A stretch of DNA of 64,000 nucleotides, taken from contig CAVVFV010000010.1 of the NCBI GenBank assembly GCA_963747695.1, positions 5,618 through 69,617 of the forward strand, given 5' to 3'. The position numbers were made by a program, and so were the translations under genes. Origin of the DNA: Candidatus Falkowbacteria bacterium. Its GTDB lineage: Bacteria > Patescibacteriota > Patescibacteriia > Patescibacteriales > WJLG01. Position 1 is the stretch's first letter; each line of letters starts with the position of its first letter. Below, one piece after another: positions 1 to 64,000 of the stretch. The notes under the pieces were generated by a model, which worked only from the letters and a program-made list of their open reading frames with translations, was not told where the DNA came from and did not search any database.

Positions 1-50
1 TTAGTCATAACATTTTTATTATTTTTTTATATATTAATAATTATAGCATA

Positions 51-560
51 AAAATCCTAAATTTAAAATCCTAAATCCTAAACAAATCCAAATGTCCAAA
101 ATTCAAAATTAAAAACCGTTGCGATTAAAGATTATTGCCGGTTATTTTTTTCTGACTTTGTAATAATCGCGCCAAATATTTTCATCAATTCCACTGATTC
201 GTTAATCAACCGTTGTTTCTCTGCTTTTAAACTTAAATTGCTTCCTTCCTCAATCAACTTAAGCCAATAACGGCTTTCCTTGGCTTCCTTGCGGCTTATT
301 TTTATCCTAAAAATAAAGTCTTTTTTGCTTAATGATTCATTGGCCTCGATGTAATTAGCTCCTACAGAGCCGGATGATCTGATTACCTGTTTTGCATCCT
401 CGATATTGGCAATGGAACTCGGAATCACTTTAATAAATTTTCTTACCCGGTCGGCAAATTCCAATGTCCGATTTTCCAGATCATAGTAATTCACCCTCGC
501 TGTTTTGAACATTAGAATTTTGAATTTGTTTAGGATTTAGGATTTCGTGCTTAGAATTTA
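51..560. repeat. class-I hairpin cassette: inverted-repeat arms enclosing four-helix-bundle ORF 132..512
   Basis: 66..87 'aaatcctaaatcctaaacaaat' is the exact reverse complement of 524..545. Simple-sequence flanks (aatcctaaa / tttaggatt) extend the arms. Confidence 0.85.
132..512 (-). CDS. four-helix-bundle protein (23S rRNA intervening-sequence protein / DGR-Avd-like family)
   Basis: 126-aa ATG ORF. Family-typical motifs 'SSGSVGANYIEA' and 'RKEAKESRYWL'. About two-thirds identical by eye to ORF 6556..6930. Enclosed by a perfect 22-nt inverted repeat (66..87 / 524..545). Confidence 0.85.
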   Translation of the reverse strand: MFKTARVNYYDLENRTLEFADRVRKFIKVIPSSIANIEDAKQVIRSSGSVGANYIEANESLSKKDFIFRIKISRKEAKESRYWLKLIEEGSNLSLKAEKQRLINESVELMKIFGAIITKSEKNNRQ

Positions 561-1286
561 TTTGACGATCATCTTCCCGACCGCGCCAAGTTGGCGGTGG
601 CCATCAAAATCGGAATAAAATGTATATTCGCCAAGCTGAGTCGGAGCATTGAAAGGAATCGCCAAAGTTTGCCGCGGTTCCAAGCCCATCGCCACGGCGG
701 CCAAGAGCGGGCTGTCGAATTTAAAAACTTCCACCGAACTGGCAGCGGTAACCGACAACACCACCGCTTGTCCGGCGCTGACCGTGAATTCCGCGGGAAC
801 AATCGAATCGGGATTTATCGTTAATTTTATGGCGCTCGCCGGCAGTTTGCTGGCATCGATCGGCGCCGACTGCAAAGGAGCGTTGGCATCACCGGCCCGC
901 GTGCCGTTGGCCGCCGTTTCCGATCCATCGCGCGTCAAAACTTCGCCGGTTTTTTCCGAGATCGGATTGCTTTGCGGCGCGACCACCACGGCTTGTTCCG
1001 GAGTCGTAGTACCGTCGCCGTTGTCCCGATTAACCGTAATTACTTTGGCAATATTTCCTGCCGCGGGAGTCGAGGCTAAATTTTTCGTTTCCTCAATCAA
1101 TTTTTGTGTGGCTTGTTTGCCCGCTTCAATGCTCGTGGCCGGGGCTTGGCCGGTCTGGGCCGCGGGCGGATTTTTCGTTATGGTCTTCGGCGCAGAAAAA
1201 TTTTTCCAAATAAACAAGCCGGCGATAAAAACAACCAAAACGCCGATGATGACAGACATGATGATGATGGATTTTTTTGTGAACAT
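558..1286 (-). CDS. membrane-anchored secreted protein, C-terminal cupredoxin-like beta-sandwich (tentative)
   Basis: 242-aa ATG ORF. N-terminal TM helix 'IIIMSVIIGVLVVFIAGLFIW', an Ala/Thr/Pro-rich linker, and a C-terminal tail 'EYTFYSDFDGHRQLGAVGKMIVK'. The fold call is by eye only. Confidence 0.6.
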   Translation of the reverse strand: MFTKKSIIIMSVIIGVLVVFIAGLFIWKNFSAPKTITKNPPAAQTGQAPATSIEAGKQATQKLIEETKNLASTPAAGNIAKVITVNRDNGDGTTTPEQAVVVAPQSNPISEKTGEVLTRDGSETAANGTRAGDANAPLQSAPIDASKLPASAIKLTINPDSIVPAEFTVSAGQAVVLSVTAASSVEVFKFDSPLLAAVAMGLEPRQTLAIPFNAPTQLGEYTFYSDFDGHRQLGAVGKMIVK

Positions 1287-1295
1287 GCGGATAAA

Positions 1296-1731
1296 ATTGT
1301 TATATTGTTATACTGCTATATTGTTAATTTATTATTCGTAAAATTTATTAGGTGATAAATTTCTTTCGGTAATTTCGCCAATTCACCAAATATGTACCTA
1401 TACTCATCTTCGTTCAACAACTTTCTCACTCGAGATTTTTCATTCCAATCCAATGATTCTTTCAGAGATCCGATTGAATAACGATAAAACTTAATTTTGT
1501 CTTTTTTACTGTATCGGCCGAAACCTTCGGCAATATTTGCGTAAATGGAATCGGCAGCGGTAACAAATTGCTCCCCCAAAGAACTTTTATTAAAATAATC
1601 CCATTTTACTATTTTGCTCCAAATATAATTGGATAAATTAAAACTTATTTTGTAAGCGTTCAAGTCGTTGAGCGACAAAAATTTCCCCTCCATAAAATTA
1701 TAACAATATAGCAATATGACAATATAACAAT
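1296..1731. repeat. class-II hairpin cassette: inverted-repeat arms enclosing four-helix-bundle ORF 1316..1693
   Basis: 1296..1326 'attgttatattgttatactgctatattgtta' against the reverse complement of 1701..1731 gives 29/31 matches. Confidence 0.85.
1316..1693 (-). CDS. four-helix-bundle protein, divergent member of the IVS/Avd-like family
   Basis: Motif 'ANIAEGFGRYSKKDKIKFYRYSIGSLKESLDW'. The track ORF starts at a TTG (1714) inside the inverted-repeat arm; the ATG at 1693 (MEGKFLS...) is preferred. Confidence 0.8.
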   Translation of the reverse strand: MEGKFLSLNDLNAYKISFNLSNYIWSKIVKWDYFNKSSLGEQFVTAADSIYANIAEGFGRYSKKDKIKFYRYSIGSLKESLDWNEKSRVRKLLNEDEYRYIFGELAKLPKEIYHLINFTNNKLTI

Positions 1732-4032: not shown

Positions 4033-4080
4033 AAAAATTTTATAGTCCCCGCTTGACGAAACGTTTTTAGCTCCGGCAGA

Positions 4081-4189
4081 TTTTTTAATTTTGTAATTTT
4101 TAAATTTTTAAAATAAATCCTAATTTTTAATTTTTAAAAATTAAGCCTTAAAAATTCTTTCAAAAATTTAAAAATTAAAAATTAATTTG
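4081..4189. repeat. AT-rich inverted-repeat element, family 'aaaattaaaaatt', copy 1
   Basis: The core at 4115..4169 is ~95% identical to 13366..13421. The outer arms 4081..4109 / 4162..4186 are complementary. Confidence 0.75.
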
Positions 4190-4554: not shown

Positions 4555-4660
4555 TGTTATATTGTCATACTGTTATATTGCTATATTGCTGCGCAACGAA
4601 ATAAATATTTATTGTAATTTAAGACGTCACTTAACAATATAACAATATAGCAATATAACC
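4553..4660. repeat. 'empty' class-II hairpin between ybeY and dgkA
   Basis: Built from the same caatataacaa/ttgttatattg units as the arms at 1296..1731. A 17-bp perfect stem joins 4572..4588 and 4643..4659. The loop begins 'gcgcaacgaaataaata'. Confidence 0.75.
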
Positions 4661-4664
4661 TTTT

Positions 4665-5087: not shown

Positions 5088-5220
5088 AAATCTGAAATAC
5101 AAAATCCAAAAATAAATTCAAAATCCGAATAACAAAAATTCTAATCGTTTTGAATTTTGAATTTTTAACATTTGAATTTGTTTAGGATTTCGTGCTTAGA
5201 ATTTCGGATTTGATTAGAAT
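5088..5220. repeat. 'empty' class-I hairpin (no ORF in loop) upstream of ybeY
   Basis: 5174..5211 'gaatttgtttaggatttcgtgcttagaatttcggattt' matches the leader motif at 522..559 and 6940..6978. Nested pairings are 5136..5144/5196..5204 (9 bp) and 5119..5129/5203..5212. Confidence 0.7.
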
Positions 5221-5222
5221 AA

Positions 5223-5284
5223 TGTCGGGAATAGACCCTCCCCGTCTCCGCCAGGGGCAGAGCCACCCCTCCCGGGGAGGGGAC
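5223..5284. repeat. GC-rich REP-like hairpin element (intergenic)
   Basis: 'ccaggggcagagccacccctcccggggaggggac' is related to the reverse complement of the 60357.. terminus ('ccaggggctgtccacccctctcaagagggg'). Confidence 0.65.
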
Positions 5285-5288: not shown

Positions 5289-6413
5289 TTATTTCAGCGT
5301 AAAGCTATTAATCATCATCAAGAAAATATGGTAATAGGCGGGATTGCTGTCTGCTGCCGGCACATAAGAAATGGTATAGATATTATTTTTCCCCGCGTCA
5401 GCCAGATAAAATATTTCTCGATTCTGATGAAAGACGCCTTGCCAGCCGTTCTTGGCGACGACGGCGGCATCGGTGACCGGAGTATCCGGGAACTGGCTGT
5501 TGTACCAATCTTTGATCGACAAGTTGCCGGTATCGGGCATCGCGACGATCTCGATGAAAGAATTATCAGCGGCCGAAAAAATGATCGACTGGCCGCTGTT
5601 CAAATCCTGCGCCTGCCAAATTTTCGGATAATCAATGCTGAATTTGGCGGCCGTGTCCTGATAAACCGCGATATGCGGATTGTCGGTGATCTTGCCCGCG
5701 CCAGCCGGATTGTAAAGACTCAAGACTTCCGCCCCATCGGTATAACCGTCGCCGTCCGTATCGGCTTTATTCGGATCAGTGCCGAAAATAGCTTCTTCGG
5801 CGTCGGAAAGGCCGTCATGATCGGAATCGACTACGTTGGCAGCCAAAGGCAAACCGTCATGGGCTAAAGTGGAAGAGGCCGAAAAAGCGGTGGTGGAGGT
5901 GGCAACCGGCGGAGTGGAAGTGGCTATGATTAGCGCGGTGGAAGAAGAAATAATCGTGGAAGTGGCCGGAGTCGTTGGCGCCGGGGCCGTCGGCGCGCTC
6001 GTGGTCGCCACTATCGGAGGAGTAGTCGAACCGACTGGCGCTGAAACCGGCGGAGGCGTAACCGACGGTTGAGTCACTGTTGGCGGAACAGATACGGCCG
6101 GCGTTTTAACCGCCGGTTTCGGATTGATTAAAAATATATAAGCCAAATAGACAGCCGCGATCATTACCAAAACCCCGACAATCATAATCACTGCTCCGAT
6201 CACGGTGGTTTTTTTATCCCCCGTCTTCGAGCTGATCTTAAACTTGCGCGGCATAGTGCGGATTTTGATATTTTTTTCAATCTCTTCGTCGAGATTGACC
6301 TTGGGCGCGCTGGCAGCCGCCGCCGAAAAAATCCGGCCGCTGTCTTTTTCGTCTGCCGGCGTATTATCCTCCGGCTCCATTATCTGCCCTTTAAATCCAG
6401 ACATAAATTTCAT
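5289..6413 (-). CDS. single-pass membrane protein with Pro/Thr/Ser-rich stalk, TSP3-like Ca-binding repeats and a C-terminal globular domain
   Basis: 374 aa. TM helix 'VIGAVIMIVGVLVMIAAVYLAYIFLI'. Repeat 'DSDHDGLSDAEEAIFGTDPNKADTDGDGYTDGAEV'. Function unknown. Confidence 0.7.
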   Translation of the reverse strand: MKFMSGFKGQIMEPEDNTPADEKDSGRIFSAAAASAPKVNLDEEIEKNIKIRTMPRKFKISSKTGDKKTTVIGAVIMIVGVLVMIAAVYLAYIFLINPKPAVKTPAVSVPPTVTQPSVTPPPVSAPVGSTTPPIVATTSAPTAPAPTTPATSTIISSSTALIIATSTPPVATSTTAFSASSTLAHDGLPLAANVVDSDHDGLSDAEEAIFGTDPNKADTDGDGYTDGAEVLSLYNPAGAGKITDNPHIAVYQDTAAKFSIDYPKIWQAQDLNSGQSIIFSAADNSFIEIVAMPDTGNLSIKDWYNSQFPDTPVTDAAVVAKNGWQGVFHQNREIFYLADAGKNNIYTISYVPAADSNPAYYHIFLMMINSFTLK

Positions 6414-6480
6414 GATTAAATGTATAATGGTAAAACCTATCTTTCCCCTGAAAAATCCTGAAGGGAAATTAAATAATACT

Positions 6481-6978
6481 TTAAATCCGAAGCTAGAAAT
6501 CCGAAATCCGAAACAAATCTAAAATCTCAAATCAGTAAAAACTAAAATTTTAATTTTATTCCTCTTGGGTTGAATTTCTTAAAATAGCTCCGAAAATTTT
6601 CATTAATTCCGTTGCCTCATTGGCTAAAAAATTTCTTTCCCGCGCCGCATTCTCGTAATTTCCGCAATCAATTAAAATTAGCCAGTATCTGCTTTCTTTG
6701 GCCTCCTTGCGACAAATCTTTATTCTTAAGATAAAATCTTTTTTACTTAAAAAATTATTAGCTTCGATATAATTTGCACCCACCGAACCGGACGATCTTG
6801 CCAATTGTTTCGCATCTTCAATATTTGATGTTGAAAACGGAATAACTTTTAGAAAATTTCTAACTTTGGCTGCGAAATTAAGTGTTCTCTCTTCCAAATC
6901 ATAATAATTAATTCTCACTGTTTTGGTCATTGGAATTTTAAATTTGTTTCAGATTTCGTGCTTCGGATTTCGGATTTA
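6481..6978. repeat. class-I hairpin cassette enclosing four-helix-bundle ORF 6556..6930
   Basis: 6497..6512 pairs perfectly (16 bp) with 6962..6977, and 6511..6518 pairs with 6942..6949. The right arm carries the conserved 'aatttgttt.ag.atttcgtgctt.g.attt' motif. Confidence 0.8.
6556..6930 (-). CDS. four-helix-bundle protein (IVS/Avd-like family)
   Basis: 124-aa ATG ORF. 'SSGSVGANYIEANNFLSKKDFILRIKICRKEAKESRYWL'. Bracketed by inverted repeats 6481..6528 / 6932..6978. Confidence 0.85.
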   Translation of the reverse strand: MTKTVRINYYDLEERTLNFAAKVRNFLKVIPFSTSNIEDAKQLARSSGSVGANYIEANNFLSKKDFILRIKICRKEAKESRYWLILIDCGNYENAARERNFLANEATELMKIFGAILRNSTQEE

Positions 6979-7039
6979 TGACATGACTAAAAAAGATTAA
7001 ATTTTCAGATTGATATCGTGCTTTTTTGCTTTCTAATTC

Positions 7040-7867: not shown

Positions 7868-8008
7868 AACGATTTATTTAGCATGCGACATATTAAATGC
7901 GACATGTAATATTAATATTTTTTATTTTATTCACTAAGATCAGGGAACATAGAACATGGATCAAAGATCATTTTTTATTGTTCTTTGCTCTATGATCTAT
8001 GCTCTTCG

Positions 8009-11000
8009 CTATTGGCTCTGGCAGGTTCCATTGGTACCGCAGGACGAACCGGCGGCTTTGCCATTACAGGCGTTTTTAGCGGCAGCCGGATCGGAACAGA
8101 CAATATTCTTACCGAAAAAATAAGATTCTTTCAGCAAGTCTTGGCAAGTTCCGCCCGCGCCGCAAGCCGCGCCGACCGGCAAACCGGTGCAGGTACCCGG
8201 AGCGTTAGTATCAGTACAATCCAAATTCGAACCAAGCGAAGTGACCGGATTGGTTACCGTGGGCAGATCGGCAGCGCTGCCGCCATTGTCGCGGCAATAA
8301 TACAATTCATAATTCATCGGATTGCAGACGGAATTCAGCGGATTCGTCGGGGACTTGACGCAGCCGCCGCCCAAAACCGCATCCAAAGTATCAAACCAGG
8401 GGCGCCAAGGAATTCCTTGCGACTGCAGATTATCCGGCCAGGTGGAAGAACACATAAAGACATAAACATCAGCCGTGCTTGAGGCGTTAGGATTTGGCAC
8501 GCTTTGATTGACATCCGTGAAAGTTCGAGTGTCGGTCAGATAAACTTTGGCTAAAAGCTGGGCTTGGGCATCGACAACTCCCGCTACCGCCCGAACCAAT
8601 TGCTCCGGAGCAACATAATCAAAAGGCTGAATAATGCCATTGTTGTTATTATTAACGAAATTGACCGCCAGGGTATTGCCGTTCTGCCAACTCCAAGTCC
8701 AGGAATATCCCTTTACCGGATGAAGGACCTGATCGTCGGCGGACAAGGCGGCGGCGGTGAAAGCTTTATCGTTGTCGGCAGCCGTATCAAAAGTCTTCGA
8801 GGTAGGATCGTTGTCGTTTTCATTCAAATCACTGTTGGAGTGATTGATCAGATAAGAATCGGGGGAAATAGAAACGTGGTCAATGCCGCAAATGCCGTCA
8901 TCTTCGCCGCTGGCTTGTTTGGTCTTGAACCACCAAAGGTAAGAATTAGTGAAAGCGACACCGTCAAATTGAGAGTAATTGGCCACCGGACTAGCGGAAC
9001 CAAAAACATTCAAGCCGATATCCCAGTAACTTAATACGGCGCCGGTAGTGGTGGACAGATCATGCACACCCCTGACCACGGCATAATAAACAGTGTCCGG
9101 TTCAAGGACGATCGAAGGTTGGAAATTAAGGATCGTCTTATTATCCCCTTCCTCGGCGCTGGAAACATTTCCCGGCACGGAGCAATAAAGATGAGAATTA
9201 TCCGGCACATTCGCGAGGCTCTGCTTACCAAACAGCCAGGTTAAATGTTCGCGCGCATCAGCCAGCAATTTGTCGTAAGTTTTCTCAAAAATATTTTTAT
9301 TCTGCAGGCTCACGTTCGCCGTTCCGATCTGGGTCGTGCCCGAGGCGCACTTGGCGTCGCCCGCCACTTCCTCGATTAAAATAAAATCATCATTAAAACT
9401 TCCGGTGTCCATCTTTTGATTGAAAGACACGCCCAAGTCGGCGTTGGTGCAAACATTGGTTACGCCGTTATCAGGCGTGATGGTGGAAACGCTGGGACGG
9501 GCGCGGCAGCAGGAATCCATGCCGCAGCCTTGATAATCCGGTGTTGCTCCCGGCGGAACGCAGCTGTCATTGCCTTGGCAGCCGCAGCAAAGTCCGCGGC
9601 TATCGCCCGAGCAAGGAGTCTGATTCTTTCGGCAGGACAAAGCGGAATTCAAACCCAAATCATGACAAGCGTCGTAAGTGGAGGCATCGGTTTTATCCGC
9701 TCCGATTTTAGTCGGATCGCAGCAGCAGAAGCCGCAACCGGCCGCGGCCGGTTTATCCGGAGCTTTCGCTCCGTTGTCGAGGAGACAACTGAAAGGACCG
9801 GAGCAGATGCCTAAATTGCAAGTATCAGGCTGGTTCTGATTTTGGCAGCTGACGCCCAAGAGAGAATTGGAAGATCCGCATTTATCATTGCACTCGGCCG
9901 AGGAAGGGAAGAATGGGCTGGCCGGCAAACTGGTCGGAGTCGAACAGCCGGCGGCATTATCGCCGCACTGAAAATAACCGCAAAAAGTACTGCCTTGATA
10001 ATTCACGATCGGTAATATATCGCCCAATGTATTGTCATAAGATAAATTCTTACAATTGCCGCTTTGCCGATCAACGCAGCAAGCGCCGGAATGATCGCGG
10101 CAGGAAGCGGCATCGGACATCGCCGCGCAATCGCGGCAAACTCCGTCGGGAAAATTAGTAGTGTCAGAGGTATCGCAGAATTGCCCGGTATGCGCGGCGC
10201 AACTGCAGGCCGCATCGGAACCGGCAACGTCTACCTGGCCGGCATTCGGACCGGAAGAGAAAAGTTTTTTGCAGCCGCCGCAAGAACCGTAAGTCGTCGG
10301 ATTGGCCTTGCCGACATCGCTGCCGCAAGTCCCCTCGCATTTCAAGGGAGCACAACAATCCTGGTTGGCATTGGCTTTCTGACAGCAGCAAGGACAAGTA
10401 TTCCCTGGAGCTTTTTCGCATTGTCCGCTGACGCAAGTTGAACCGCCGGCGCAGACCTCACTCGCCGAACCGCAAACGCCTTGATGCGAAGCGGGCTGGC
10501 TCGGATCGGCCAAACAGTCTTGCTTGGCATTGAGGCAGATCGAGCACGGGGTCGCGGTGTCGACACAAACCGGGATGCCCTGAACATCAATGCCGCGAAG
10601 ATTGAATTTTGCCGAACAGCGGGGACCGGCCTTATACATATAATAGTAGAAGAGATTATTGCTCACATCTTTATAAGCGCCGCAATAAGTATCATGAGAG
10701 TTGCCCAAATCATCGACGGTGGTGCTGGCTAAATCGCAAACCTCGCTATGGCCGCCGGTATTTTCCACACATCTGTTGAGTTGAGAACTATAAACGCAGG
10801 TGCCGGAGTCACAACCGGGCTGATCCTGGCAATGCGAATCATCGCAATTAACTGTCGGCGAAAAAGGCTGCAAAACAGGACTGCCGGTTAAAGGCGAACA
10901 CTCGCCCGGAACATTGGGACAAGTCAGTCCCAAAGTGCAGGCGCCGGTCGCGTTACTTATTTCCTCACAGCTTCCCGGAGCAGTCGGGGAAGCAATCGGC

Positions 11001-13333: not shown

Positions 13334-13342
13334 TGACACGCT

Positions 13343-13440
13343 TTATAATTTTTTAATTTTTAAAGAAATCCTAATTTTTAATTTTTTTAAAAATTAAGCC
13401 TTAAAAATTCTTTAAAAATTACAAAATTACAAAATTAAAT
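13343..13440. repeat. AT-rich inverted-repeat element, copy 2
   Basis: Shares its core with copy 1. Shares both termini with copy 3 ('ttataattttttaatttttaaa' and 'tttaaaaattacaaaatt'). Confidence 0.75.
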
Positions 13441-13446
13441 CTTCTC

Positions 13447-16400
13447 CTAGGGGCAATCTCCGTTGGCGTCCAATTTACTCGTCGCCACGCCGTAACAGCA
13501 GGAAGGCTGCGTTGTCGAAACATTCTTGCAGGTCGACTGATCGCCGGACGGTTTGAAACAATTTTCATGGATATCGCGCACCGCCGAACCGGCCTGGGCG
13601 CGGTAATCGGAAGATTCGCCGAAATCGCTATGCTTGATGATCGCATTGGTCTGGATCGGCGCGTTACCGCCAAAAAGCGTTTCGGTTTGGATCCAATAGC
13701 CGATCGGATTATCCGCCACATTCCAGAGGTTGATATTCTTATGAGTAACTGGCCCTTGGCCGGTATCAATCACAGTCGAGCCGGTAACCAAAGTGGAAGC
13801 CATCATCAATTTATTGAAATTGATTTTGATATCCTGGCTCAACTTCGGCACTTCGCCCGCGGCCGGTGAAACCGACGTCACGATCGGCGCCGAAATATCC
13901 ATCTGATCATTGACATAAAAACTCCAGGAAAAATTATCGCCGTTGGCGCAATAATAAGTAGGGATATTCACCTGGCCACAAGTGGCGGAACTGACCGCGT
14001 CTTGTCGGCAAGCGACATAACCTGGTTCATTTTCGTTCTCGTCAAAGATAAAAAGATTTCCCGAGCTATCTTTGACGGCGCCAGGCAAACCGATGTCTTT
14101 CATTTCCTTATTCATCAAATTCAGGCATCCCGTCGCACCTAGGGCGGTACATCCACCGACAGTATAATATTTGTAATTTCCGGCGTCGGGGCCGGTAATT
14201 TCTCCCAATACTTTGTCCTGTTTGATTCGGGCGGCGATCACGGCCTGGATGATCGTTGAAAAATTATCCTGGCAAGACTGATTATTGGAATAGATCGGCG
14301 GATTATCGCTGTAAGTCGCGGCCGGACCGTCGGCAAAACTATTCCGGTCGCCGTCCAAAGAATTGAAAGCCGCGTCAGTCACGCCATCCGGCCCGCCAGC
14401 TGGCGCGGCCTGAATATTGGCCGCGGGATAGCGGCGGACTTCGGGAGCGGTGGCAGCATAATTGCCGCCCAGATTCTCACTGCAAATATTATTGATGCAT
14501 TGATCGTAGGCTTTGCCATTGACATTCTTAGCGGCGCAATCGGCATTAGTATCGCAATGCGCCAAACTCGCCGCTTTGATAACGACTTCAAGGTGGCTGT
14601 TGGGCGGCAGACAATAGATCGGTTCGCCGCAACCATTGACGCCGCAAGGGACATTACTGGTGAACTCCACGGTCTGATAAAGATTGGCGATGGCGAAAGT
14701 TCCTTGCAAATATTCGTTGCTGCCGGCGCAAATTTTATTGGAACAAGTGAAAGATTTACAGTCAGCGGCCTGCGCGCAACCGCCGCCAGCGGACTTGGCG
14801 TTCGGATCGGCATTGACCACTTGAATTGCTGAAGCGTCAGTGGCGGCCCCGGCCACATTGGACGGCAAGATCGGCTCATTGAAATTTATCTGGATGACCG
14901 TGTTCATCGGCTGGTCAGGCTGGTTGCCGGCCGTGCTGACGTTGGGGTCGGCCGTGCTTGAACCGTCATCGCCGCCTTTCATATTAGTAATCGAGAGCGC
15001 GCCGGAATTATCCGGAGAATTAAAAGATAGGTTGATATTATTACCGGCCGCGCCGGCAGCGGCCGCCGAAACCGTTACTTGAGCGCCGGAAACCGCAACC
15101 GTGATGTCGGTCTGTTTGCCTAAAGCGGCGGCAATATTATTCGCCGTATCCGCGGCTGTCGCGCCCACGGCGATTTCATTATCCTGAGTCGATTTTTTTA
15201 CAAAAGTATAAACGAGCGATCCTGCTTGCAAAGAATCGGCCTGTCGGGCGGCCGTAATCGTAACTGTCCAGGCATCGCCGGCCTTGACATCAGCGTGAGC
15301 AGTCAGAGAAAAAGGATATTTACCGGTAAAGAAAACTGTCCGGCCGCTAAAGATGGCTGAGCCTAAATTTGATCCGTCAATCAATGTCGCCGTAGCAGTT
15401 AATCCGTCCGGCAAAACAACTACTTTGATAACTGCGCTTAAATCGGCATTTTGATTCACCGTGGTATCAGCGTCAGGAGTAGGCGAAGCTGAAACTGTTT
15501 TGGCCGCCGAACTGGTAGCTGCCACAAAATATTGCGGCGGTTTGCGGCAGATGCCGGCATTGACCGTGATTGAGCCGACCGCGCGCGCGGCGAAAACCAG
15601 GTTAGCATTATCCCGGCCGTTGTCCGGCGGCGGAAAGACTCCGCTTGAAACAACCTGCGGCGGAGTAAGATCGATCTTATTGGAAACTTGGAATTGCCAA
15701 TTCAAACTGCCGGCGCAACCGGAACCGCTAAAAGCCGAGCTATGGTCGCTCGTCCGCGTAATCCCGCCGAGCAGATTGACCGTGTACCAGACATTGTCCG
15801 TTTCCGAACCCAAATATTGCGCGGGAATAAAAGTAAATGTTTTATTATTATCGGAAGATATTACTTTGGTATCAATTAAAGGATTGCCGCTGTCGCTGGA
15901 TTTATAAATTTGGACGTTGGTCGTATTGATCGTCGAACCGGCGGCGCAATTTCCACTGGCATCGACGGAAGCGCAAACGGTTTTTGCATCGACCGATTCC
16001 TTGAAAGTGATGAAGATCGCCGTATTCCGCGGCACTGCCATCTGATTGGGCACCGGATAGACATTCTGGACGCTGCATTCGCCGATCGCTCCGGCGCCGT
16101 TGATCCCTCCCCCGGGCGGTCCGGAGGGATTATTGCCGGCTCCTCCGCCGGCTCCGGTCGCGCCCAACAATTGGTTCAAAATAAAAGTCGCGATGGCAAA
16201 AGCGGAAAGGATGATCAGCAAACCGATAATGGCGCTGACCAAAGTCCGCTTGGCCCGGTCGATCTGCTCCTCATTGCCGGCCGCCGTCATCCACAAGAAC
16301 CCGCCGTAAACTATCAAGCCGAGGGCGATGACTCCCAAAAAACCCAAAAAGATCTGGATGATCCGGCCGATGATCAGCCGCGGATCGGTCGCGCCAAGGC

Positions 16401-16518: not shown

Positions 16519-16520
16519 TA

Positions 16521-16713
16521 TCGTATTTCGTATTTCGTATTTCGTATTTTGACTGCCCAGCGATTTGCTCTTGAATTTTGGGCGTAAAAATACAAAAAAC
16601 GCCAGACGAATCATTGACTAATCCCCACTGTTGTTATTAAATTAGATTATACCATAAAATGCCAAGAGAATAAAATATACGAAATACCAAATACGAAATA
16701 CGATATACGAATT
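16521..16713. repeat. 'cgtatttcg/cgaaatacg' inverted simple repeats flanking the divergent promoter region
   Basis: Left arm 16521..16550 ((tcgtattt)n). Right arm 16672..16713 (its imperfect complement), abutting the rel ATG. Confidence 0.7.
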
Positions 16714-18475: not shown

Positions 18476-18496
18476 AGTGAAACACCTCCAATCAAT

Positions 18497-18599
18497 ATTC
18501 GTATCTCGTATTCGGTATTTCGTATTTCGTATATATTTTCAGCAACATTCTGTCCAAAAACATACACGAAATACGAAATACGATCTACGAAATACGATT
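18497..18599. repeat. 'cgtatttcg' family hairpin between hisS and rpsU
   Basis: Arms 18497..18534 and 18562..18599 are ~85% complementary, with a 27-nt loop. Confidence 0.75.
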
Positions 18600-19971
18600 A
18601 AATAGTATTAATTCTCTTCTCGACTTCTGCCTTTACTTTTTTATAATCAACAATCTCTTGATTGCCTGATTCCATATCGCGGAGCATGATCGTCTTGTCA
18701 TTCATTTCCTTCTGGCCTAAGATCAAAGTCAATTTGGCGCCCAAAGCATTGGCTTCTTCCAGCTGATCCTTCAAGCTGTCACGGGTAAAAGCCTGTTTGA
18801 CTTTCAGACCGGACTTGCGCAATTCCTCGAACAAACCCATGGCTTTGCGGCGGGCCGCATCGCCTAATTGAGCGATAAAAATTATATTCTTGTCATCTTT
18901 TTCCAAAGGGATGCCGGCGGTTTTTATTTTCGCGACAGTGCGCTCGATGCCAACGGCGAAGCCGCAAGTCGGAGTCGGCCGGCCGCCGAAAAATTCCACC
19001 AAAGTGTCATACCGTCCGCCGCCGCCCAAAGACAATTGGCCATTGGGATTCTTGTCCCCTTCTTCCTTGGCGGTGATCTCAAAAACCGTGCCGGTATAAT
19101 AATCCAAGCCGCGGACCAGACTCAAATTCAAATTATAAGGAATGTTCATTTCATCGAGATATTCCAAAACGCGGGTGAATTTCTTCTTGCAATCCTCGCA
19201 GAGGAAATCGACGATCGGCGGCGCGCCTTCTTTCAAAGCGATGCAATTAGGTTCTTTACAATCTAAAAGGCGTAAGGGATTTTTTTCCAACCGGCGCTTG
19301 CAATCATTGCAGAGTCGCGAACGGTTACCCCTTTCTTTATAATAAGCGGTCAGCTTCTTGATATATTCGCCGCGGCATTGCTTGCAGCCGATATTATTAA
19401 CCTGTAATTCGATATCGATCTGCAATTCGCTGAAAAGATTATAAGCGATGAGCATCAAGAGGAAATCGGCCACCGGGCTGGCTTCGCCGAAAATTTCCAT
19501 ATCAAACTGATGCGACTGGCGGTATCGTCCGGCTTGCGGTTTTTCGTGGCGGAAGATCGGACCGTAAGAATACATCTTCACCGGATGCGGCATATTCAGC
19601 ATGCCGTTCTCGATATAAGCGCGGACCAAGCTCGGCGTGATTTCCGGACGTAAGGCGATCTTTTCACCGTTCTTATCGACAAAAGCGTACATTTCTTTGG
19701 AAACGATATCGCTCGATTCGCCGGTGGATTTGCGGTAAAGCTCCAATTGCTCGAGGATCGGAGTTTGGATTTTCTTGAAACCGTAAATTTCCGCCAAGTC
19801 GGAAGCTTTCTTGATCACCAGATCCCAATATTTATTTTCGTCAAAAATAATATCCTTCATCCCTCTTAAGCGGACGAATTTTTCCGAAAGGCCTTTCTGC
19901 TTCAATTCCTCTTTGTGGAAAGGATCCCGGTGGTGATGATTGTTATTTTGATTATTTTTTCGACGAGGCAT
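18598..19971 (-). CDS. hisS: histidine--tRNA ligase
   Basis: 457 aa. 'RGMKD', 'LRPEITPSLVRAY', 'YGPIFRHEKPQAGRYRQSHQFDMEIFG'. Confidence 0.92.
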   Translation of the reverse strand: MPRRKNNQNNNHHHRDPFHKEELKQKGLSEKFVRLRGMKDIIFDENKYWDLVIKKASDLAEIYGFKKIQTPILEQLELYRKSTGESSDIVSKEMYAFVDKNGEKIALRPEITPSLVRAYIENGMLNMPHPVKMYSYGPIFRHEKPQAGRYRQSHQFDMEIFGEASPVADFLLMLIAYNLFSELQIDIELQVNNIGCKQCRGEYIKKLTAYYKERGNRSRLCNDCKRRLEKNPLRLLDCKEPNCIALKEGAPPIVDFLCEDCKKKFTRVLEYLDEMNIPYNLNLSLVRGLDYYTGTVFEITAKEEGDKNPNGQLSLGGGGRYDTLVEFFGGRPTPTCGFAVGIERTVAKIKTAGIPLEKDDKNIIFIAQLGDAARRKAMGLFEELRKSGLKVKQAFTRDSLKDQLEEANALGAKLTLILGQKEMNDKTIMLRDMESGNQEIVDYKKVKAEVEKRINTI

Positions 19972-19980: not shown

Positions 19981-20118
19981 AATTTAAATTTTATAATTTT
20001 TTAATTTTTAAATAGTTTTTAAACTCTAATTTTTTAATTTTTTAAAGGCCAATTTAAATGATAATTTTAAAAATTAAAAATTTGGATTTATTTAAAAATT
20101 ACAAAATTTAAAAATTTC
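19981..20118. repeat. AT-rich inverted-repeat element, copy 3
   Basis: 19991..20012 is identical to 13344..13365, and 20091..20108 is identical to 13411..13428. Confidence 0.75.
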
Positions 20119-20689: not shown

Positions 20690-20809
20690 TGTTTTTAAAA
20701 AATAATATCCCCTCCTTGTTTTATGGGGGAGTTTTGCGAGTAATTTAACTTATACCCAATATAACATTAAAAAATACGGCAGTCAACCCTAAAAAATAAT
20801 CCGAACCTG

Positions 20810-20888
20810 CGAAATATCCGAATACTACGAACCCTGCAAATCGAAAAAAAATTCGTTGTATTCGCGTATAATTCGTAGTATTCGTATT
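20810..20888. repeat. 'cgaatac' family hairpin upstream of lepB
   Basis: 13-bp perfect stem 20819..20831 / 20872..20884, with an inner palindrome 'tcgaaaaaaaattcg'. Confidence 0.7.
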
Positions 20889-20920
20889 ATCTGACCGAGC
20901 AAATTAGAAAGTAAGCAGTG

Positions 20921-21004: not shown

Positions 21005-21010
21005 TGGATA

Positions 21011-21039: not shown

Positions 21040-21090
21040 GCCATTTATCAACAGCGGCAAACAACCAGAGACAAAGTAATTAAAAAAAAT

Positions 21091-21192
21091 GTTATACTGC
21101 CAAATTGTTATATTGTTACGCAACGAAATAAATAACAATGGTGTTTATTAAAATCGTTGCGTAACAATATAACAATTTAACAATATGACAAT
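21091..21192. repeat. 'empty' class-II hairpin, 25-bp perfect stem
   Basis: 21102..21126 'aaattgttatattgttacgcaacga' is the exact reverse complement of 21154..21178. The 27-nt loop begins 'aataaata', as in 4553..4660. Confidence 0.85.
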
Positions 21193-23203: not shown

Positions 23204-23293
23204 AAAATATCCAATAAACAATATCAAATATCCAAAAAATATTAAAATATTTAAATATTTTTTAAAATATTGGCTATTTGATATTGGATATTT
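23204..23293. repeat. 'aaatatccaata' hairpin filling the yebC-ruvC gap
   Basis: 12-bp perfect stem 23205..23216 / 23282..23293 with an imperfect extension. The arms touch the ruvC start and the yebC stop. Confidence 0.7.
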
Positions 23294-54221: not shown

Positions 54222-54242
54222 AAATATTTTAATTAATAATTA

Positions 54243-54330
54243 AAAATGTAAATCTCAAAATGCAAAATTATAGAATTCGCCTGAGGCAAAAAAATACTAA
54301 TTAATTTTTCATTTTGACATTTTCATTTTA
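54243..54330. repeat. 'aaaatgNaaat' hairpin immediately downstream of tRNA-Pro
   Basis: Arms 54243..54269 / 54303..54330 are imperfectly complementary. Same family as 54796..54847. Confidence 0.7.
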
Positions 54331-54340
54331 CACTACTTTG

Positions 54341-54550: not shown

Positions 54551-54708
54551 GTGATTTTGGAAGGCATCGTTTCCGTAGCGAAACCGAAAAAATCAGAGAT
54601 AGAATTTTTTGGATTTTTCGAGACGTACTCGCGTACGTTGAGAAAATCCGAAAAATTATAGCCTGATTTTTACGGTTGCAGCAGGAAAAAGATGCCTTCC
54701 AAAATCAC
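54551..54708. repeat. 158-nt long imperfect hairpin 5 nt downstream of tRNA-Phe
   Basis: 18-bp perfect basal stem 54551..54568 / 54691..54708. Apical palindrome acgtac-tcgc-gtacgt centred at ~54630. Confidence 0.8.
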
Positions 54709-54785: not shown

Positions 54786-54795
54786 GAAAATACTG

Positions 54796-54847
54796 TAAAA
54801 TGCAAATCTCAAAATGAAAAATTTTTCATTTTGACTTTTTCATTTTA
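54796..54847. repeat. 52-nt palindrome immediately downstream of tRNA-fMet
   Basis: 54796..54821 against the reverse complement of 54822..54847, with few mismatches. The 13-bp core 'tcaaaatgaaaaa/tttttcattttga' is perfect. Confidence 0.8.
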
Positions 54848-54858
54848 AACTACTGTTG

Positions 54859-54930: not shown

Positions 54931-54941
54931 ATGTTCAGATC

Positions 54942-55010
54942 GAAAGATAAGAGAGAATAGATAAGAGATATTTAAATCCCCGTTCATTATCTCTTCTCTC
55001 TTATCTTTAA
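54942..55010. repeat. 'aagataagaga' hairpin between tRNA-Ile and tRNA-fMet
   Basis: Left arm 54942..54970 and right arm ~54988..55008 are complementary. Confidence 0.7.
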
Positions 55011-55030
55011 TCTGCTCTCTGTTTAAGGTG

Positions 55031-60627: not shown

Positions 60628-60698
60628 TGACAAAATTAATATAATATGTAAGAATCAAGTGTCAAAGAATGTCCATTAACCTCAAAAAGGGAGATATC

Positions 60699-60914
60699 AT
60701 GCGATTCACTTTATACGCCGCCATCGTCCTTACCGTTTTAACAATTATAGAATTAATAGTTGGGACAATACTATTTGTTCTGCCCGCGACCCACAATTCG
60801 CCATTGGGATTTACGGCGAGCATGGCATCTATTTTATTTCCATTTCCCACAATAATCCTTTGGGCGATCTATCTCTCGGCGAGAGATATCCTTAAGAAGG
60901 TGGAAAAAAAATAA
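60699..60914 (+). CDS. small two-TM membrane protein
   Basis: The ATG at 60699 is preceded by AGGGAG. The track ORF starts earlier, at 60669. It has two hydrophobic helices. Confidence 0.5.
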   Translation: MRFTLYAAIVLTVLTIIELIVGTILFVLPATHNSPLGFTASMASILFPFPTIILWAIYLSARDILKKVEKK

Positions 60915-60979
60915 TCGTAAAACATATCTCCCGAACCACGCAAATAGCCCTCACCTTCAACTCACAAAGGAGACAATGT

Positions 60980-61180
60980 ATGAAAGGAACATTAACGATC
61001 ACCGGCGCAACAAAGCAGCAAATCGCCAGATTGGAATCATTATTTCCCGGTAAACTGCTTTTCGACTCTGCACAAAAAAAAGAAATTACCGTAGTCCTGT
61101 TCAGCACCGACAGTCCAGACGATCAGCAGGAGGCAGCCGCGGCAGTATTCGTTCTCGAGAATACTATTCAAAAACAATGA
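60980..61180 (+). CDS. small hypothetical protein (66 aa)
   Basis: ATG preceded by an AAGGAG. Followed by the plus-strand terminator at 61206..61237. Confidence 0.5.
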   Translation: MKGTLTITGATKQQIARLESLFPGKLLFDSAQKKEITVVLFSTDSPDDQQEAAAAVFVLENTIQKQ

Positions 61181-61205
61181 ATGGAAGATCAAGTTACGAT
61201 TCGAC

Positions 61206-61237
61206 GGCCTTCAAATCACTGAAGGCTGTTTTTATTT
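61206..61237 (+). terminator. intrinsic terminator of the small plus-strand gene pair
   Basis: Stem ggccttca/tgaaggc followed by TGTTTTTATTT. Confidence 0.65.
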
Positions 61238-61294
61238 GATGCCATAATCCTTGCTACTTTTTAAATAAACGCGGCAAAGACTTTTACGATGATA

Positions 61295-61344: not shown

Positions 61345-61389
61345 GGGGGAAGGTTAAACCTTCTTACTTCTTACTTTTTACTTGTTACT

Positions 61390-62840: not shown

Positions 62841-62852
62841 AAGACTAAAAAA

Positions 62853-63362
62853 TTATTTCAAGCATCTTAACTCGAAATATATTTCATCATAAATATTAAA
62901 CAAAAAAATCTTCCAAAATTTCTTCCCGGGGAGCAAATTTCTCAACTTGTGCCGCCAATCGACTGAATAATTATAAAACTCCGCCTTTTCCACTTTGAAA
63001 CGGGCCGAAGAATAAAAAGAGAAATAATGATCGCTGGAAAAATAAGAGAAAGTGTCCTCGGTAAAAAAATTGCGGTGGGTCGGATCCTTAAAGGCCGCGT
63101 CGCTCTTGGCATACGGCACGCGAATCTTTACCAGCCCGTTAGGTTCGAGGAGCCGGTGGATTTCCTCCATTGTCGGCAGCAAAGACGCGACGTGTTCCAG
63201 AACATTATCAGCGACGATCTCAGACACTGAACTGTCGGCAAAAGGATAGGGCCGGACGTCCAGATCGTGGACAATATCAGTCGCTTCAGTTTTTATCCGA
63301 TCGACGCCAAGGTAACCAGGAACCCTTTTTTGGCCGCAGCCGAGATTTAGTTTTATTGTCAT
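62853..63362 (-). CDS. class I SAM-dependent methyltransferase
   Basis: 169 aa. 'LNLGCGQKRVPGYLGVD' (motif I) and 'VADNVLEH'. Confidence 0.8.
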   Translation of the reverse strand: MTIKLNLGCGQKRVPGYLGVDRIKTEATDIVHDLDVRPYPFADSSVSEIVADNVLEHVASLLPTMEEIHRLLEPNGLVKIRVPYAKSDAAFKDPTHRNFFTEDTFSYFSSDHYFSFYSSARFKVEKAEFYNYSVDWRHKLRNLLPGKKFWKIFLFNIYDEIYFELRCLK

Positions 63363-63870
63363 AAAAAAATTTCAAATAGAATTCCCGCAATAATTTGGCA
63401 TCATCCAGCGCATGGTGCTCGCGGTATTTTTTCCAGTCAATGCCCATTTTCTCAAAAGTGCCGTCACGGTCGGCATCGCCGAAATCTTCCGGGTTCTTAC
63501 CTAAGGCGAAGAACATCGAGGAGATATCGATGGTGATCCAGTGGAAAATATTGGTCTTTCCCGGCCCCATGATATTTTTCAGATAGACCGCATCGTAATT
63601 ATCGATGTAAGAAAGCAAGAATGGCGTGCTGGATCCGGCGAATTTTTTTATTTGCTTCAAGGCCTCGCCCGGACTGATCTTGTCGCCGGTCAAAAGTGGA
63701 ATGACATTTTCCTTCACCCATTCATCAGGCTCAACCGTGCTTTCCAATTCCAAATATAATTCCTCGCCGTTCATCTTAACCATGCCGATCGACAAAAGCT
63801 CCCCTCGCTTGGTATCAAAGGAAGAGAATTCCGAATCGTAAAAGATTATATTATCGGAAAAAGGCTCCAT
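63286..63870 (-). CDS. DEDD-family 3'-5' exonuclease-like protein
   Basis: 194 aa. 'IIFYDSEFSS' (Exo I), 'HHALDDAKLL' (Exo III). The 3' end overlaps the next gene by 77 nt. Confidence 0.7.
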   Translation of the reverse strand: MEPFSDNIIFYDSEFSSFDTKRGELLSIGMVKMNGEELYLELESTVEPDEWVKENVIPLLTGDKISPGEALKQIKKFAGSSTPFLLSYIDNYDAVYLKNIMGPGKTNIFHWITIDISSMFFALGKNPEDFGDADRDGTFEKMGIDWKKYREHHALDDAKLLREFYLKFFYDNKTKSRLRPKKGSWLPWRRSDKN

Positions 63871-63900
63871 ACTTTAAAAATATATTTTATAATTCTCCTT

Positions 63901-64000
63901 TTATTTCTTTTTCCAGTCGATTTAAAAAACTCCGGTGATATTCAAGCCGTTCGCGTCCGATTTCTTTGGCCCGCTCAGTCTGCAATTTATCCACCAGAAG
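63901..64000 (-). CDS. 3' end of a truncated ORF that continues beyond the window
   Basis: Open frame to the window edge, ending '...RERLEYHRSFLNRLEKEIK*' (read by eye). No function call. Confidence 0.35.

What the first reader, a model, noticed from the sequence alone, without database searches (positions are those of the whole stretch)
1..64000. 60-kb co-directional gene array punctuated by a different long hairpin in almost every gap
All protein genes except three are on the minus strand. Most spacers consist almost entirely of an inverted repeat from one of ~7 sequence families: aatcctaaa, caatataacaa, aaaattaaaaatt, cgtatttcg, aaatatccaata, aaaatgaaaa and aagataagaga. Only some spacers also contain a canonical GC-stem/U-tract terminator. 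One inference is that very long transcripts are segmented post-transcriptionally at these duplexes, which would be RNase III 'punctuation'. The four-helix-bundle ORFs would then be passengers or cofactors.
Basis: inference. Interest (0 to 1): 0.55.

Follow-up and report, generated by a model that had tools for sequence, protein, structure and literature searches.

The report
Foldback repeat elements filling gene junctions
The long hairpins between genes in this candidate-phyla-radiation bacterium are real, but they look like copies of a selfish palindromic element related to the "intervening sequences" known from 23S rRNA, some still carrying their four-helix-bundle gene, rather than built-in RNA punctuation marks.

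Summary
Long imperfect hairpins occupy 13 of 36 spacers by a strict test, against 0.37 expected. About 19 of 36 count if split and gapped ones are included. They cluster in 1-24 kb and in the tRNA cluster. Most spacers in 44-64 kb carry ordinary GC-stem/T-tract terminators instead.

- Every arm is a tandem array of 7- or 8-nt units.
- The three "four-helix-bundle" ORFs are PF05635/TIGR02436 (23S rRNA intervening-sequence protein). Each sits inside a hairpin, between 36-42-bp arms.
- In sister genomes the same gene junctions are empty or hold a different hairpin family.

The ORF-plus-arms unit is widespread outside rRNA and lies co-directionally inside operons:
- 54 of 76 metagenome loci with the A-type protein have heptamer arms.
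- 7 of 7 contexts with the B-type protein have octamer arms.

Best reading: a family of foldback, IVS-like elements, with or without the ORF, that colonises transcribed gene junctions. RNase III cleavage of their stems is likely by analogy with rRNA IVSs, but it is untested here. Adaptive "punctuation" is not supported.

The parts
40..557 (-). Element A1. Heptamer-repeat arms at 513-557 (5') and 40-112 (3') enclose the PF05635 ORF at 132-512 (126 aa).
   Evidence: Pfam 23S_rRNA_IVP 8.5e-14 and TIGR02436. The arm duplex is 42 bp, -46.7 kcal/mol, against shuffles at -13.8 +/- 3.2. Period 7.
1290..1731 (-). Element B1. Octamer (TTGTTATA) arms at 1700-1731 and 1290-1330 enclose the PF05635 ORF at 1316-1693 (125 aa, identical to P0001). 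The stop codon lies inside the 3' arm.
   Evidence: Pfam 2.2e-20. Duplex of 36 bp, -38.5 kcal/mol against -10.4 +/- 2.9. Period 8. P0001 is a 100% match.
4080..4188 (.). Element C1. ORF-less hairpin of the AATTTTT family, upstream of the 766-aa gene.
   Evidence: It is 90.5% identical over 95 nt to C2, with unrelated flanks.
4555..4664 (.). Element B0a. ORF-less TTGTTATA hairpin that fills the YbeY-stop to DAGK-start spacer.
   Evidence: MFE -37.2, z -6.8. Structure. Similar to the B1 arms and to B0b.
5100..5230 (.). Element A0. ORF-less A-type hairpin that abuts the YbeY start codon.
   Evidence: It aligns end to end with A1 once the A1 ORF is removed, in either orientation. 44 nt are 91% identical to the A1 3' arm.
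6480..7015 (-). Element A2. Heptamer arms at 6931-7015 and 6480-6545 enclose the PF05635 ORF at 6556-6930 (124 aa, 67% identical to the A1 protein).
   Evidence: Duplex of 41 bp, -46.2 kcal/mol against -19.8 +/- 4.1.
7945..8004 (.). Hairpin H. The arm units are GAGCATA/GATCATA (period 7).
   Evidence: Structure. Lag-7 self-match of 0.71-0.80.
13341..13440 (.). Element C2. It fills the whole spacer between the two giant pilin-domain genes.
   Evidence: z -5.2. The orthologous spacer in L002 holds a GAAATTA/GAGATTG hairpin instead.
16519..16712 (.). Element D1. CGTATTT arms around a 130-nt loop that contains TGGTATAAT.
   Evidence: IR score 26. Structure. The same family and loop are conserved in L002 at 13348-13528.
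18488..18613 (.). Element D2. A 52-pair CGTATTT hairpin between HisS and rpsU. The 5' arm overlaps the HisS stop codon.
   Evidence: The junction has different content in L001, L002, L003 and L007.
19983..20118 (.). Element C3. It fills the signal-peptidase to HisS spacer.
   Evidence: The orthologous spacer is 18 nt and empty in L001, 15 nt in L004 and 28 nt in L007. L002 has a D-type hairpin there.
20798..20896 (.). Weaker CGAATAC hairpin downstream of a conserved non-coding block.
   Evidence: MFE -30.1, z -3.9. L001 and L002 carry unrelated hairpins at the same relative position.
21086..21192 (.). Element B0b. A 44-pair TTGTTATA hairpin located just downstream of a canonical terminator.
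   Evidence: L002 has a terminator followed by a GAGATTG hairpin at the same place.
23205..23293 (.). Element E. An AAATATCCAATA hairpin that runs from the YebC stop codon to the RuvC start.
   Evidence: z -4.3. Structure. Same family in L002. By the gene-alignment ends, L007 and L003 leave only about 27-33 nt between YebC and RuvC; those spacers were not read.
54235..54337 (.). Element F1. An AAAATGA-family hairpin between rpsT and tRNA-Pro.
   Evidence: z -5.5. 94% identical over 35 nt to F2.
54551..54708 (.). A 65-pair, 158-nt hairpin between tRNA-Pro and tRNA-Phe. It has a different composition (39% GC). Its periodicity was not measured; by eye it is not a 7/8-nt tandem array.
   Evidence: The only Rfam matches are sub-threshold hits to plant pre-miRNA models.
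54789..54854 (.). Element F2, between tRNA-Phe and tRNA-Met.
   Evidence: z -5.9. Structure.
54936..55014 (.). Element G. An AGATAAG hairpin between tRNA-Met and tRNA-Ile.
   Evidence: z -6.6. Lag-7 self-match of 0.65-0.71.

Best explanation
The hairpins are copies of a family of 'foldback' palindromic genetic elements. They are the same kind of element as the ORF-bearing intervening sequences (IVSs) of 23S rRNA, but here they are lodged in gene-gene and tRNA-tRNA junctions.

A full element has three parts: a 5' arm, a PF05635 four-helix-bundle gene, and a 3' arm. The arms are 30-70-nt arrays of 7- or 8-nt tandem units, and the two arms pair over 36-42 bp. The 5' arm ends a few nucleotides before the ATG. 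Miniature elements are the two arms with a short loop.

The elements sit co-directionally inside operons. They are therefore transcribed with the host genes. The closed stem brings the flanking stop and start codons together, which would explain why insertion is tolerated.

Shown here:
- the anatomy of the elements
- their multi-copy families
- ORF-less copies that are collinear with ORF-bearing ones
- subfamily-specific arms conserved across phyla
- co-orientation with neighbouring genes
- presence/absence and family replacement at orthologous junctions

Inferred:
- that they move, or are copied, between junctions; the mechanism is unknown
- that the transcribed stems are cut by RNase III, as rRNA IVS stems are; this would split operon mRNAs as a by-product rather than as a designed function
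For: - Three PF05635/TIGR02436 ORFs each lie between long complementary arms.
- All arm families have period 7 or 8. The pooled self-match is 0.53 at lag 7 and 0.47 at lag 8, against 0.25-0.37 at other lags.
- ORF-less copies share arms with ORF-bearing ones, and A0 aligns through the point where the ORF would be.
- C1 and C2 are 90.5% identical over 95 nt with unrelated flanks.
- Among 76 testable metagenome loci encoding A-type homologues (57-70% aa identity), 54 have upstream/downstream inverted repeats, against 2 of 380 shuffled flank pairs. 49 of those 54 have period 7. The arm usually ends 4-6 nt before the ATG.
- None of the 20 longest of these loci contains rRNA.
- 7 of 7 B-type contexts, from Bacteroidota-like and several CPR contigs, have NNATTGTT octamer arms.
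- The neighbouring genes are co-directional: 61 to 8 upstream and 51 to 11 downstream.
- The signal-peptidase/HisS junction is empty in L001, L004 and L007 (15-28 nt), holds a C-type hairpin in the window, and holds a D-type hairpin in L002. Several other junctions also differ in family between sister genomes.
- The Coxiella IVS has a 28-bp terminal IR stem, a PF05635 ORF and tandem heptamers before the ATG, and it is cut by RNase III (PMC4990558).
- PF05635 ORFs also occur in CPR rRNA insertions (10.1101/2024.02.27.582315).
- PF05635 genes have been seen wedged between cas genes (PMC3936711).
Against: - No transposase, recombinase or reverse transcriptase is present.
- No target-site duplication or clean insertion boundary is visible, so mobility is inferred from distribution only.
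- PF05635 has no known catalytic activity.
- Replacement of one family by another at the same site could also arise by rapid in-situ turnover of repeat units.
- RNA-level pairing is not clearly under selection. Sense-strand G-U versus A-C mismatches are 77 to 97 in the metagenome elements and 28 to 13 in the window. Sense versus antisense duplex energies give p = 0.076.
- No RNase III gene or transcript data could be examined.
- Families C to G have no ORF-bearing copy in this window.
Confidence: 0.65

Rival explanations
1. Adaptive RNase III punctuation. The hairpins are maintained because the cell needs them to cut long polycistronic transcripts into units.
For: - The stems are long enough, and they lie mostly at junctions that lack a canonical terminator: 15 of 19 such junctions against 2 of 15 with a terminator, Fisher p = 3.6e-4 (my own classification).
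- Homologous rRNA IVSs are RNase III substrates.
- The window shows a modest G-U excess on the sense strand, 28 to 13, p = 0.03.
Against: - The closest relative, L001, lacks the hairpin at the signal-peptidase/HisS junction, as do the outgroups L004 and L007.
- Hairpin families are swapped between sister genomes.
- More distant relatives (L003, L007, and L011-L016) have few or none.
- The 54 metagenome elements show no G-U bias.
- One copy sits just after a terminator.
Confidence: 0.12
2. In-situ satellites. Each junction grows its own palindrome by slippage and template switching. Unit sequences drift and homogenise quickly, with no transfer between sites.
For: - The arms are tandem 7/8-nt units, with extra or missing units between the two arms.
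- Heptamer copy number varies among Coxiella strains.
- There are no target-site duplications.
- Solo arms exist at 46866-46900 and 61350-61389.
Against: - Near-identical full-length copies occur at distant loci with unrelated flanks: C1/C2, B0a/B0b and F1/F2.
- The same arm type accompanies the same protein subfamily in different phyla.
- An AT-rich heptamer palindrome occurs in a 71% GC genome.
Confidence: 0.12
3. The hairpins are unconventional transcription terminators, attenuators or 3'-end stabilisers for this lineage.
For: They occur mainly where no canonical terminator is present. Long 3' stems can block exonucleases; this is established for REP elements, from my own knowledge.
Against: - The stems are 8-32% GC and have no consistent U-tract. 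None of the period-7/8 palindromes is among the sites listed by the terminator scans of 1-20 kb and 44-64 kb.
- The genome uses ordinary GC-stem/T-tract terminators elsewhere.
- Hairpins separate tRNAs of one cluster and abut start codons.
- Three of them enclose a gene.
Confidence: 0.06
4. The repeat arms are DNA or RNA binding arrays for a protein, possibly the PF05635 pentamer. They would serve regulation or nucleoid organisation, and the palindromy would be secondary.
For: The unit type follows the protein subfamily: heptamers with A-type and octamers with B-type. The DGR homologue Avd belongs to the same superfamily; from my own knowledge it binds nucleic acid.
Against: No binding data exist. 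Most hairpins have no cognate ORF nearby. The presence/absence polymorphism argues against a host function. This idea is compatible with the best explanation rather than exclusive of it.
Confidence: 0.05

Closest known systems
ORF-bearing 23S rRNA intervening sequences (Leptospira and Coxiella burnetii type, encoding S23p/PF05635)
   Same: - Terminal inverted repeats form a long stem.
- A PF05635 four-helix-bundle ORF lies in the loop.
- Tandem heptamers lie directly upstream of the ATG, with no good ribosome-binding site.
- ORF-less short versions exist.
- The element depends on host read-through transcription.
   Different: - The location is between protein-coding genes and between tRNAs, not in helix 25 or 45 of 23S rRNA.
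- There are many copies and several arm families per genome.
- RNase III excision was not tested here.
Correia / NEMIS repeat-enclosed elements of Neisseria (MITEs whose transcripts are bound or cut by RNase III)
   Same: These are multi-copy intergenic palindromic elements that are co-transcribed with flanking genes. Their RNA hairpins are RNase III substrates, and they show insertion polymorphism between strains (PMC2649163 abstract).
   Different: - Correia elements have conserved 26-nt terminal repeats, a TA duplication and an IHF site, and are thought to be IS-derived.
- The elements here have tandem 7/8-nt unit arms and no detectable duplication.
- Their full-length relatives encode PF05635, not a transposase.
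Foldback (FB) transposons of Drosophila (architecture only; from my own knowledge)
   Same: They have long inverted arms built from short tandem repeats of variable number. Most copies are arms only, and a minority carry coding DNA in the loop.
   Different: They are eukaryotic, kilobase-scale and unrelated in sequence. No homology is implied.
RNase III processing hairpins between phage T7 early genes (from my own knowledge; Dunn & Studier 1973 is cited within)
   Same: Hairpins lie in the spacers of a co-directional polycistronic array.
   Different: The T7 sites are conserved, single-copy, functional signals of about 20 bp with internal loops. The elements here are repetitive, polymorphic and much longer.
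Avd accessory proteins of diversity-generating retroelements
   Same: The protein belongs to the same superfamily as PF05635.
   Different: No reverse transcriptase or template/variable repeat pair accompanies the three ORFs here.

Membership tests
23S rRNA intervening sequence (IVS) with S23p ORF | Inserted in a 23S rRNA helix (helix 25 or 45) | tested here: not met
   There is no rRNA in the window or in the 20 longest homologous loci. The elements lie between protein genes and tRNAs.
23S rRNA intervening sequence (IVS) with S23p ORF | Terminal inverted repeats forming a long stem around the element | tested here: met
   Arm duplexes of 36-42 bp, -38 to -47 kcal/mol, against shuffles of -10 to -20.
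23S rRNA intervening sequence (IVS) with S23p ORF | PF05635 / TIGR02436 ORF in the loop | tested here: met
   Three ORFs with E = 1e-11 to 2e-20, TIGR02436 above its cut-off, and a PDB 2RLD match. The other ~15 hairpins are ORF-less.
23S rRNA intervening sequence (IVS) with S23p ORF | Tandem heptameric repeats adjoining the ORF start (Coxiella) | tested here: met
   A-type arms have period 7 and end a few nt before the ATG. The Coxiella description is in PMC4990558. B-type arms use octamers.
23S rRNA intervening sequence (IVS) with S23p ORF | Excision from the transcript by RNase III without religation | not testable with these tools
   No transcript data. No RNase III signature in any fetched DNA, which covers only a small part of the genome.
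Correia/NEMIS-type MITE | Multi-copy intergenic element with terminal inverted repeats and insertion polymorphism | tested here: met
Correia/NEMIS-type MITE | Target-site duplication, and derivation from a transposase-encoding IS | tested here: not met
   No duplication at the empty-versus-filled junctions or at copy boundaries. No transposase domain in the window.
Intrinsic (Rho-independent) terminator | Short GC-rich stem followed by a U-tract | tested here: not met
   Hairpin GC is 8-32%. None of the period-7/8 palindromes is among the sites listed by the terminator scans of 1-20 kb and 44-64 kb, which do find ordinary terminators in other spacers.
Integron cassette array (attC sites) | An integrase, conserved attC core sites, and promoterless cassette ORFs | tested here: not met
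   No integrase. The flanked genes are housekeeping genes in conserved synteny (HisS, RuvC, YebC, YbeY).
Diversity-generating retroelement (Avd component) | An adjacent reverse transcriptase and a template/variable repeat pair | tested here: not met
   No RT domain in any window ORF scanned, apart from the last 1563 residues of the giant gene, which were not scanned.

The most novel reading that the evidence does not exclude
The classical rRNA IVS is only one niche of a large, cross-phylum class of operon-junction foldback elements. In this reading the PF05635 pentamer recognises the 7- or 8-nt repeats of its own arms and promotes copying of the element. This could happen through the RNase III-excised hairpin RNA and a host reverse transcriptase, in the way its homologue Avd assists DGR cDNA synthesis. 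It would give PF05635/TIGR02436 a function and would define a new mode of mobility.
Probability: 0.12. Interest if true: 0.85.

Novelty: new variant of a known kind. Interest (0 to 1): 0.6.

Why it matters
PF05635/TIGR02436 is a very large family of unknown function. The origin and mobility of rRNA intervening sequences have been open questions since about 1990. If the same ORF-plus-repeat-arm unit routinely sits in ordinary operon junctions of CPR bacteria and Bacteroidota, three consequences follow:
- IVSs become one instance of a general selfish element.
- The arm repeats give a concrete, testable candidate ligand for the protein.
- Genome annotators gain an explanation for 'four helix bundle protein' genes that interrupt operons, including cas operons.
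It also flags a possible, untested layer of RNase III-dependent mRNA processing in small CPR genomes.

Tried and rejected
- A first hairpin census from MFE helices of >=18 pairs was too permissive. It gave 221 hits, mostly in coding sequence. I replaced it with an ungapped IR score plus shuffles.
- Exact look-up of the RuvC protein found nothing.
- Rfam at gathering thresholds found only the four tRNAs. In E-value mode the hairpins matched only plant pre-miRNA models below threshold, so no known RNA family applies.
- A strand-specific G-U test for RNA-level selection was inconclusive.
- An RNase III signature-motif search of all fetched DNA found nothing, but that DNA covers little of any genome.
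- The source contig (453,905 nt) could not be fetched.
- A viral-contig scan gave one distant hit, so phages are not an obvious carrier.
- Literature searches found no description of PF05635 elements outside rRNA as palindromic repeats.
- Integron cassettes, REP/RAYT, DGR and terminators were considered and rejected on their defining features; REP/RAYT was set aside on recalled features (short GC-rich REPs with a RAYT gene), not on a formal test.


Full report
**What the window is.** The 64-kb window is a chromosomal segment of a Patescibacteria (CPR) bacterium. It encodes HisS, RelA/SpoT, RuvC, YebC, YbeY, diacylglycerol kinase, signal peptidase, purine-biosynthesis enzymes, rpsT, rpsU and four tRNAs. 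It also encodes giant surface proteins with N-terminal T4SS-pilin domains. The nearest genomes found through HisS are Patescibacteria MAGs. Almost every gene is on the minus strand. The exceptions are relA/spoT and two small ORFs in 60669-61230.

**Check of the observation.**
- Long inverted repeats are strongly concentrated in the 10.5% of bases that are intergenic. This holds for 23 of the 25 longest pairs and for 26 of 28 ungapped matches scoring >=14.
- Thirteen of 36 spacers contain such a repeat, against 0.37 expected from dinucleotide shuffles, which never gave more than one.
- Whole-spacer folds reach z = -4 to -11, and the structures are single long stems of 26-52 pairs.
- 'Almost every gap' is an overstatement. 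The palindromes fill the junctions of 1-24 kb and the spacers of the tRNA cluster. In 44-64 kb most junctions outside the tRNA cluster have an ordinary GC-stem/T-tract terminator and a promoter, and none has a palindrome.
- By my own classification, 15 of 19 junctions without a canonical terminator carry a palindrome, against 2 of 15 junctions with one (Fisher p = 3.6e-4).

- Every arm is a tandem array of short units. The period is 7 for families A (AAATCCT/G), D (CGTATTT), E, F, G and H, and 8 for families B (TTGTTATA) and C (AATTTTT). The pooled self-match is 0.53 at lag 7 and 0.47 at lag 8, against 0.25-0.37 at other lags.
- The three small 'four-helix-bundle' ORFs (132-512, 1316-1693 and 6556-6930) are PF05635, '23S rRNA intervening sequence protein'. 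They are TIGR02436 members with a solved pentameric homologue, 2RLD.
- Each ORF lies inside a palindrome. The spacer upstream and the spacer downstream are the two arms, and they pair over 36-42 bp at -38 to -47 kcal/mol. Shuffled arms give -10 to -20.
- The 5' arm ends directly at the ATG with no Shine-Dalgarno sequence. In the B-type element the stop codon lies inside the 3' arm.
- ORF-less hairpins of the same families occur elsewhere in the window. A0 (5100-5230) aligns end to end with A1 once the A1 ORF is removed.
- C1 and C2 are 90.5% identical over 95 nt while their flanks are unrelated.

**The unit is widespread and is not an rRNA feature.**
- A metagenome scan with the three proteins returned the 80 best of more than 359 loci, at 57-70% identity.
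- In 54 of the 76 loci with enough flank, the ORF lies between inverted repeats. Only 2 of 380 shuffled flank pairs reach the same score. In 49 of those 54 the arm has period 7, typically AAATCCG AAATCCG AAGCACG AAATCCG AAACAAAT, ending 4-6 nt before the ATG.
- None of the 20 longest loci contains any Rfam family, so none is in rRNA.
- The neighbouring genes are co-directional with the ORF: 61 to 8 upstream and 51 to 11 downstream. The median distance from the upstream stop to the ATG is 68 nt. The elements therefore sit inside operons and depend on read-through transcription.
- The B-type protein has homologues of about 70% identity in Bacteroidota and in several CPR phyla.
- In all seven B-type contexts examined the ORF lies between NNATTGTT octamer arms. 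Examples lie between T4SS genes, between two FtsX genes, and after a T2SS ATPase. Arm type thus follows protein subfamily across phyla.

**Comparison with sister genomes.**
- L002 (HisS 92% identical, genes about 80% identical at the DNA level) is syntenic with 8.6-25 kb of the window. It also has period-7 palindromes at its junctions, but often of another family.
- The spacer between the two pilin-domain genes holds the AATTTTT family in the window and a GAAATTA/GAGATTG hairpin in L002.
- The site after the sigma-like gene holds TTGTTATA in the window and GAGATTG in L002.
- The site downstream of a conserved non-coding block carries three unrelated hairpins in the window, L001 and L002.
- The most informative case is the signal-peptidase/HisS junction. 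It is 18 nt with no hairpin in L001 (HisS 95% identical), 15 nt in L004 and 28 nt in L007. It is a 151-nt C-type hairpin in the window and a 191-nt D-type hairpin in L002.
- The hairpins are therefore gains with rapid turnover, not conserved signals.
- More distant CPR relatives have few or none, and non-CPR genomes essentially none. One exception is a TGGAAAA heptamer palindrome in a 71% GC genome.

**Interpretation.**
- The anatomy matches the ORF-bearing IVS of 23S rRNA. In Coxiella burnetii the IVS has a 28-bp terminal inverted-repeat stem, a PF05635 ORF, and tandem heptamers of strain-variable number just before the ATG. It is excised by RNase III in vitro, with ends confirmed by RACE (PMC4990558).
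- PF05635 ORFs also occur in rRNA insertions of CPR bacteria. They have been noticed between cas genes, for example between cmr3 and cmr2 (PMC3936711).
- I therefore read the window's hairpins as foldback, IVS-like elements, full-length or miniature, that colonise transcribed junctions. A self-closing stem is harmless in such places. Comparable harmless sites are helix tips in rRNA and the spacers between tRNAs.
- Between translationally coupled genes the stem would bring the stop and start codons together. HisS, DAGK, YbeY and RuvC have hairpins abutting their start codons and no Shine-Dalgarno sequence. HisS also lacks one in the empty L001 allele. This last point is inference.

**On RNase III.**
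- That the transcribed stems are RNase III substrates is a reasonable inference. It rests on the rRNA IVSs and on the precedent of Neisseria Correia elements (PMC2649163). It remains untested here.
- The strand-specific wobble test did not show RNA-level selection. G-U versus A-C mismatches are 77 to 97 in the metagenome elements and 28 to 13 in the window. Sense versus antisense duplex energies give p = 0.076.
- No RNase III gene lies in the DNA available.
- Cleavage, if it occurs, is better seen as a consequence of the elements than as a purpose-built punctuation system.

**What remains unexplained.**
- How the elements are copied is unknown. There is no transposase, no reverse transcriptase and no target duplication.
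- It is unclear why arms are built from 7- or 8-nt units with a subfamily-specific sequence, and what the PF05635 pentamer does.
- The correlation between arm unit and protein subfamily suggests that the protein recognises its own arms. That is a hypothesis only.

**Novelty and score.** I found no paper describing PF05635 genes outside rRNA as repeat-armed palindromic elements, or describing such hairpins in CPR genomes. The library does not hold most subscription journals. I rate this as a new variant of a known kind (IVS or MITE-like palindromic elements), with interest 0.6.

Noticed in passing
window 20921-21022: A non-coding block conserved at 93-95% with L001 and L002 and 73-79% with L003 and L007. 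This is far above the neighbouring spacer sequence. It contains a GC stem with a T-run (20916-20966). It has no Rfam match and could be a small RNA gene or a conserved terminator or leader.
   Followed up: partly
window 54551-54708: A 158-nt, 65-pair hairpin between tRNA-Pro and tRNA-Phe, with 39% GC. By eye it lacks the 7/8-nt unit structure of the other hairpins; its periodicity was not measured. A TATAAT-like motif lies in one arm. It may be a different element or a structured RNA.
   Followed up: partly
window 24741-44432: A single 6563-aa ORF with internal repeats spaced roughly 1.2-5 kb apart and almost no Pfam matches. In the syntenic L002 locus the same interval is about 2.9 kb and holds an 806-aa gene.
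   Followed up: partly
window 47873-47892; also L001 ~2235-2255 and L002 ~9040-9060: The GC-rich palindrome CCTGCCTGCCGGCAGGCAGG recurs. In the two relatives it sits at the centre of period-7 hairpins (GGATATC/CAGATAT units).
   Followed up: no
window 46866-46900, 61350-61389 and 24023-24060: Solo arrays of 7/8-nt units (AAGTAA/AAGTTAA and AAAAATTA) directly after stop codons, with no partner arm. They may be half-palindrome remnants.
   Followed up: no
L018 12061-12174: A TGGAAAA-heptamer palindrome (arms of about 31 nt, 39% GC) directly after a gene, in a 71% GC non-CPR genome. It looks foreign to its surroundings.
   Followed up: partly
L002 2850-2915 and about 5510-5600: GC-rich palindromes whose arms also have 7-nt units (GGGCTTT GGGCTCA GGGCGCA). 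The unit architecture is therefore not limited to AT-rich sequence.
   Followed up: no
window start codons at 19971, 4554, 5081 and ~23203, compared with 53760, 56021 and 44432: Genes whose start codon abuts a hairpin (HisS, DAGK, YbeY, RuvC) have no Shine-Dalgarno sequence. Genes that follow a terminator-plus-promoter spacer have a clear GGAGG.
   Followed up: partly
P0011, P0018, P0104 versus P0031, P0049, P0084: B-type four-helix-bundle proteins from Bacteroidota and from several CPR phyla are all about 70% identical to the window's copy. That is much closer than housekeeping proteins would be, which suggests horizontal spread.
   Followed up: partly
L126 1-1881: Two PF05635 genes flank one FtsX/MacB permease gene, and a second permease gene follows. 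Consecutive junctions of one operon are occupied.
   Followed up: no
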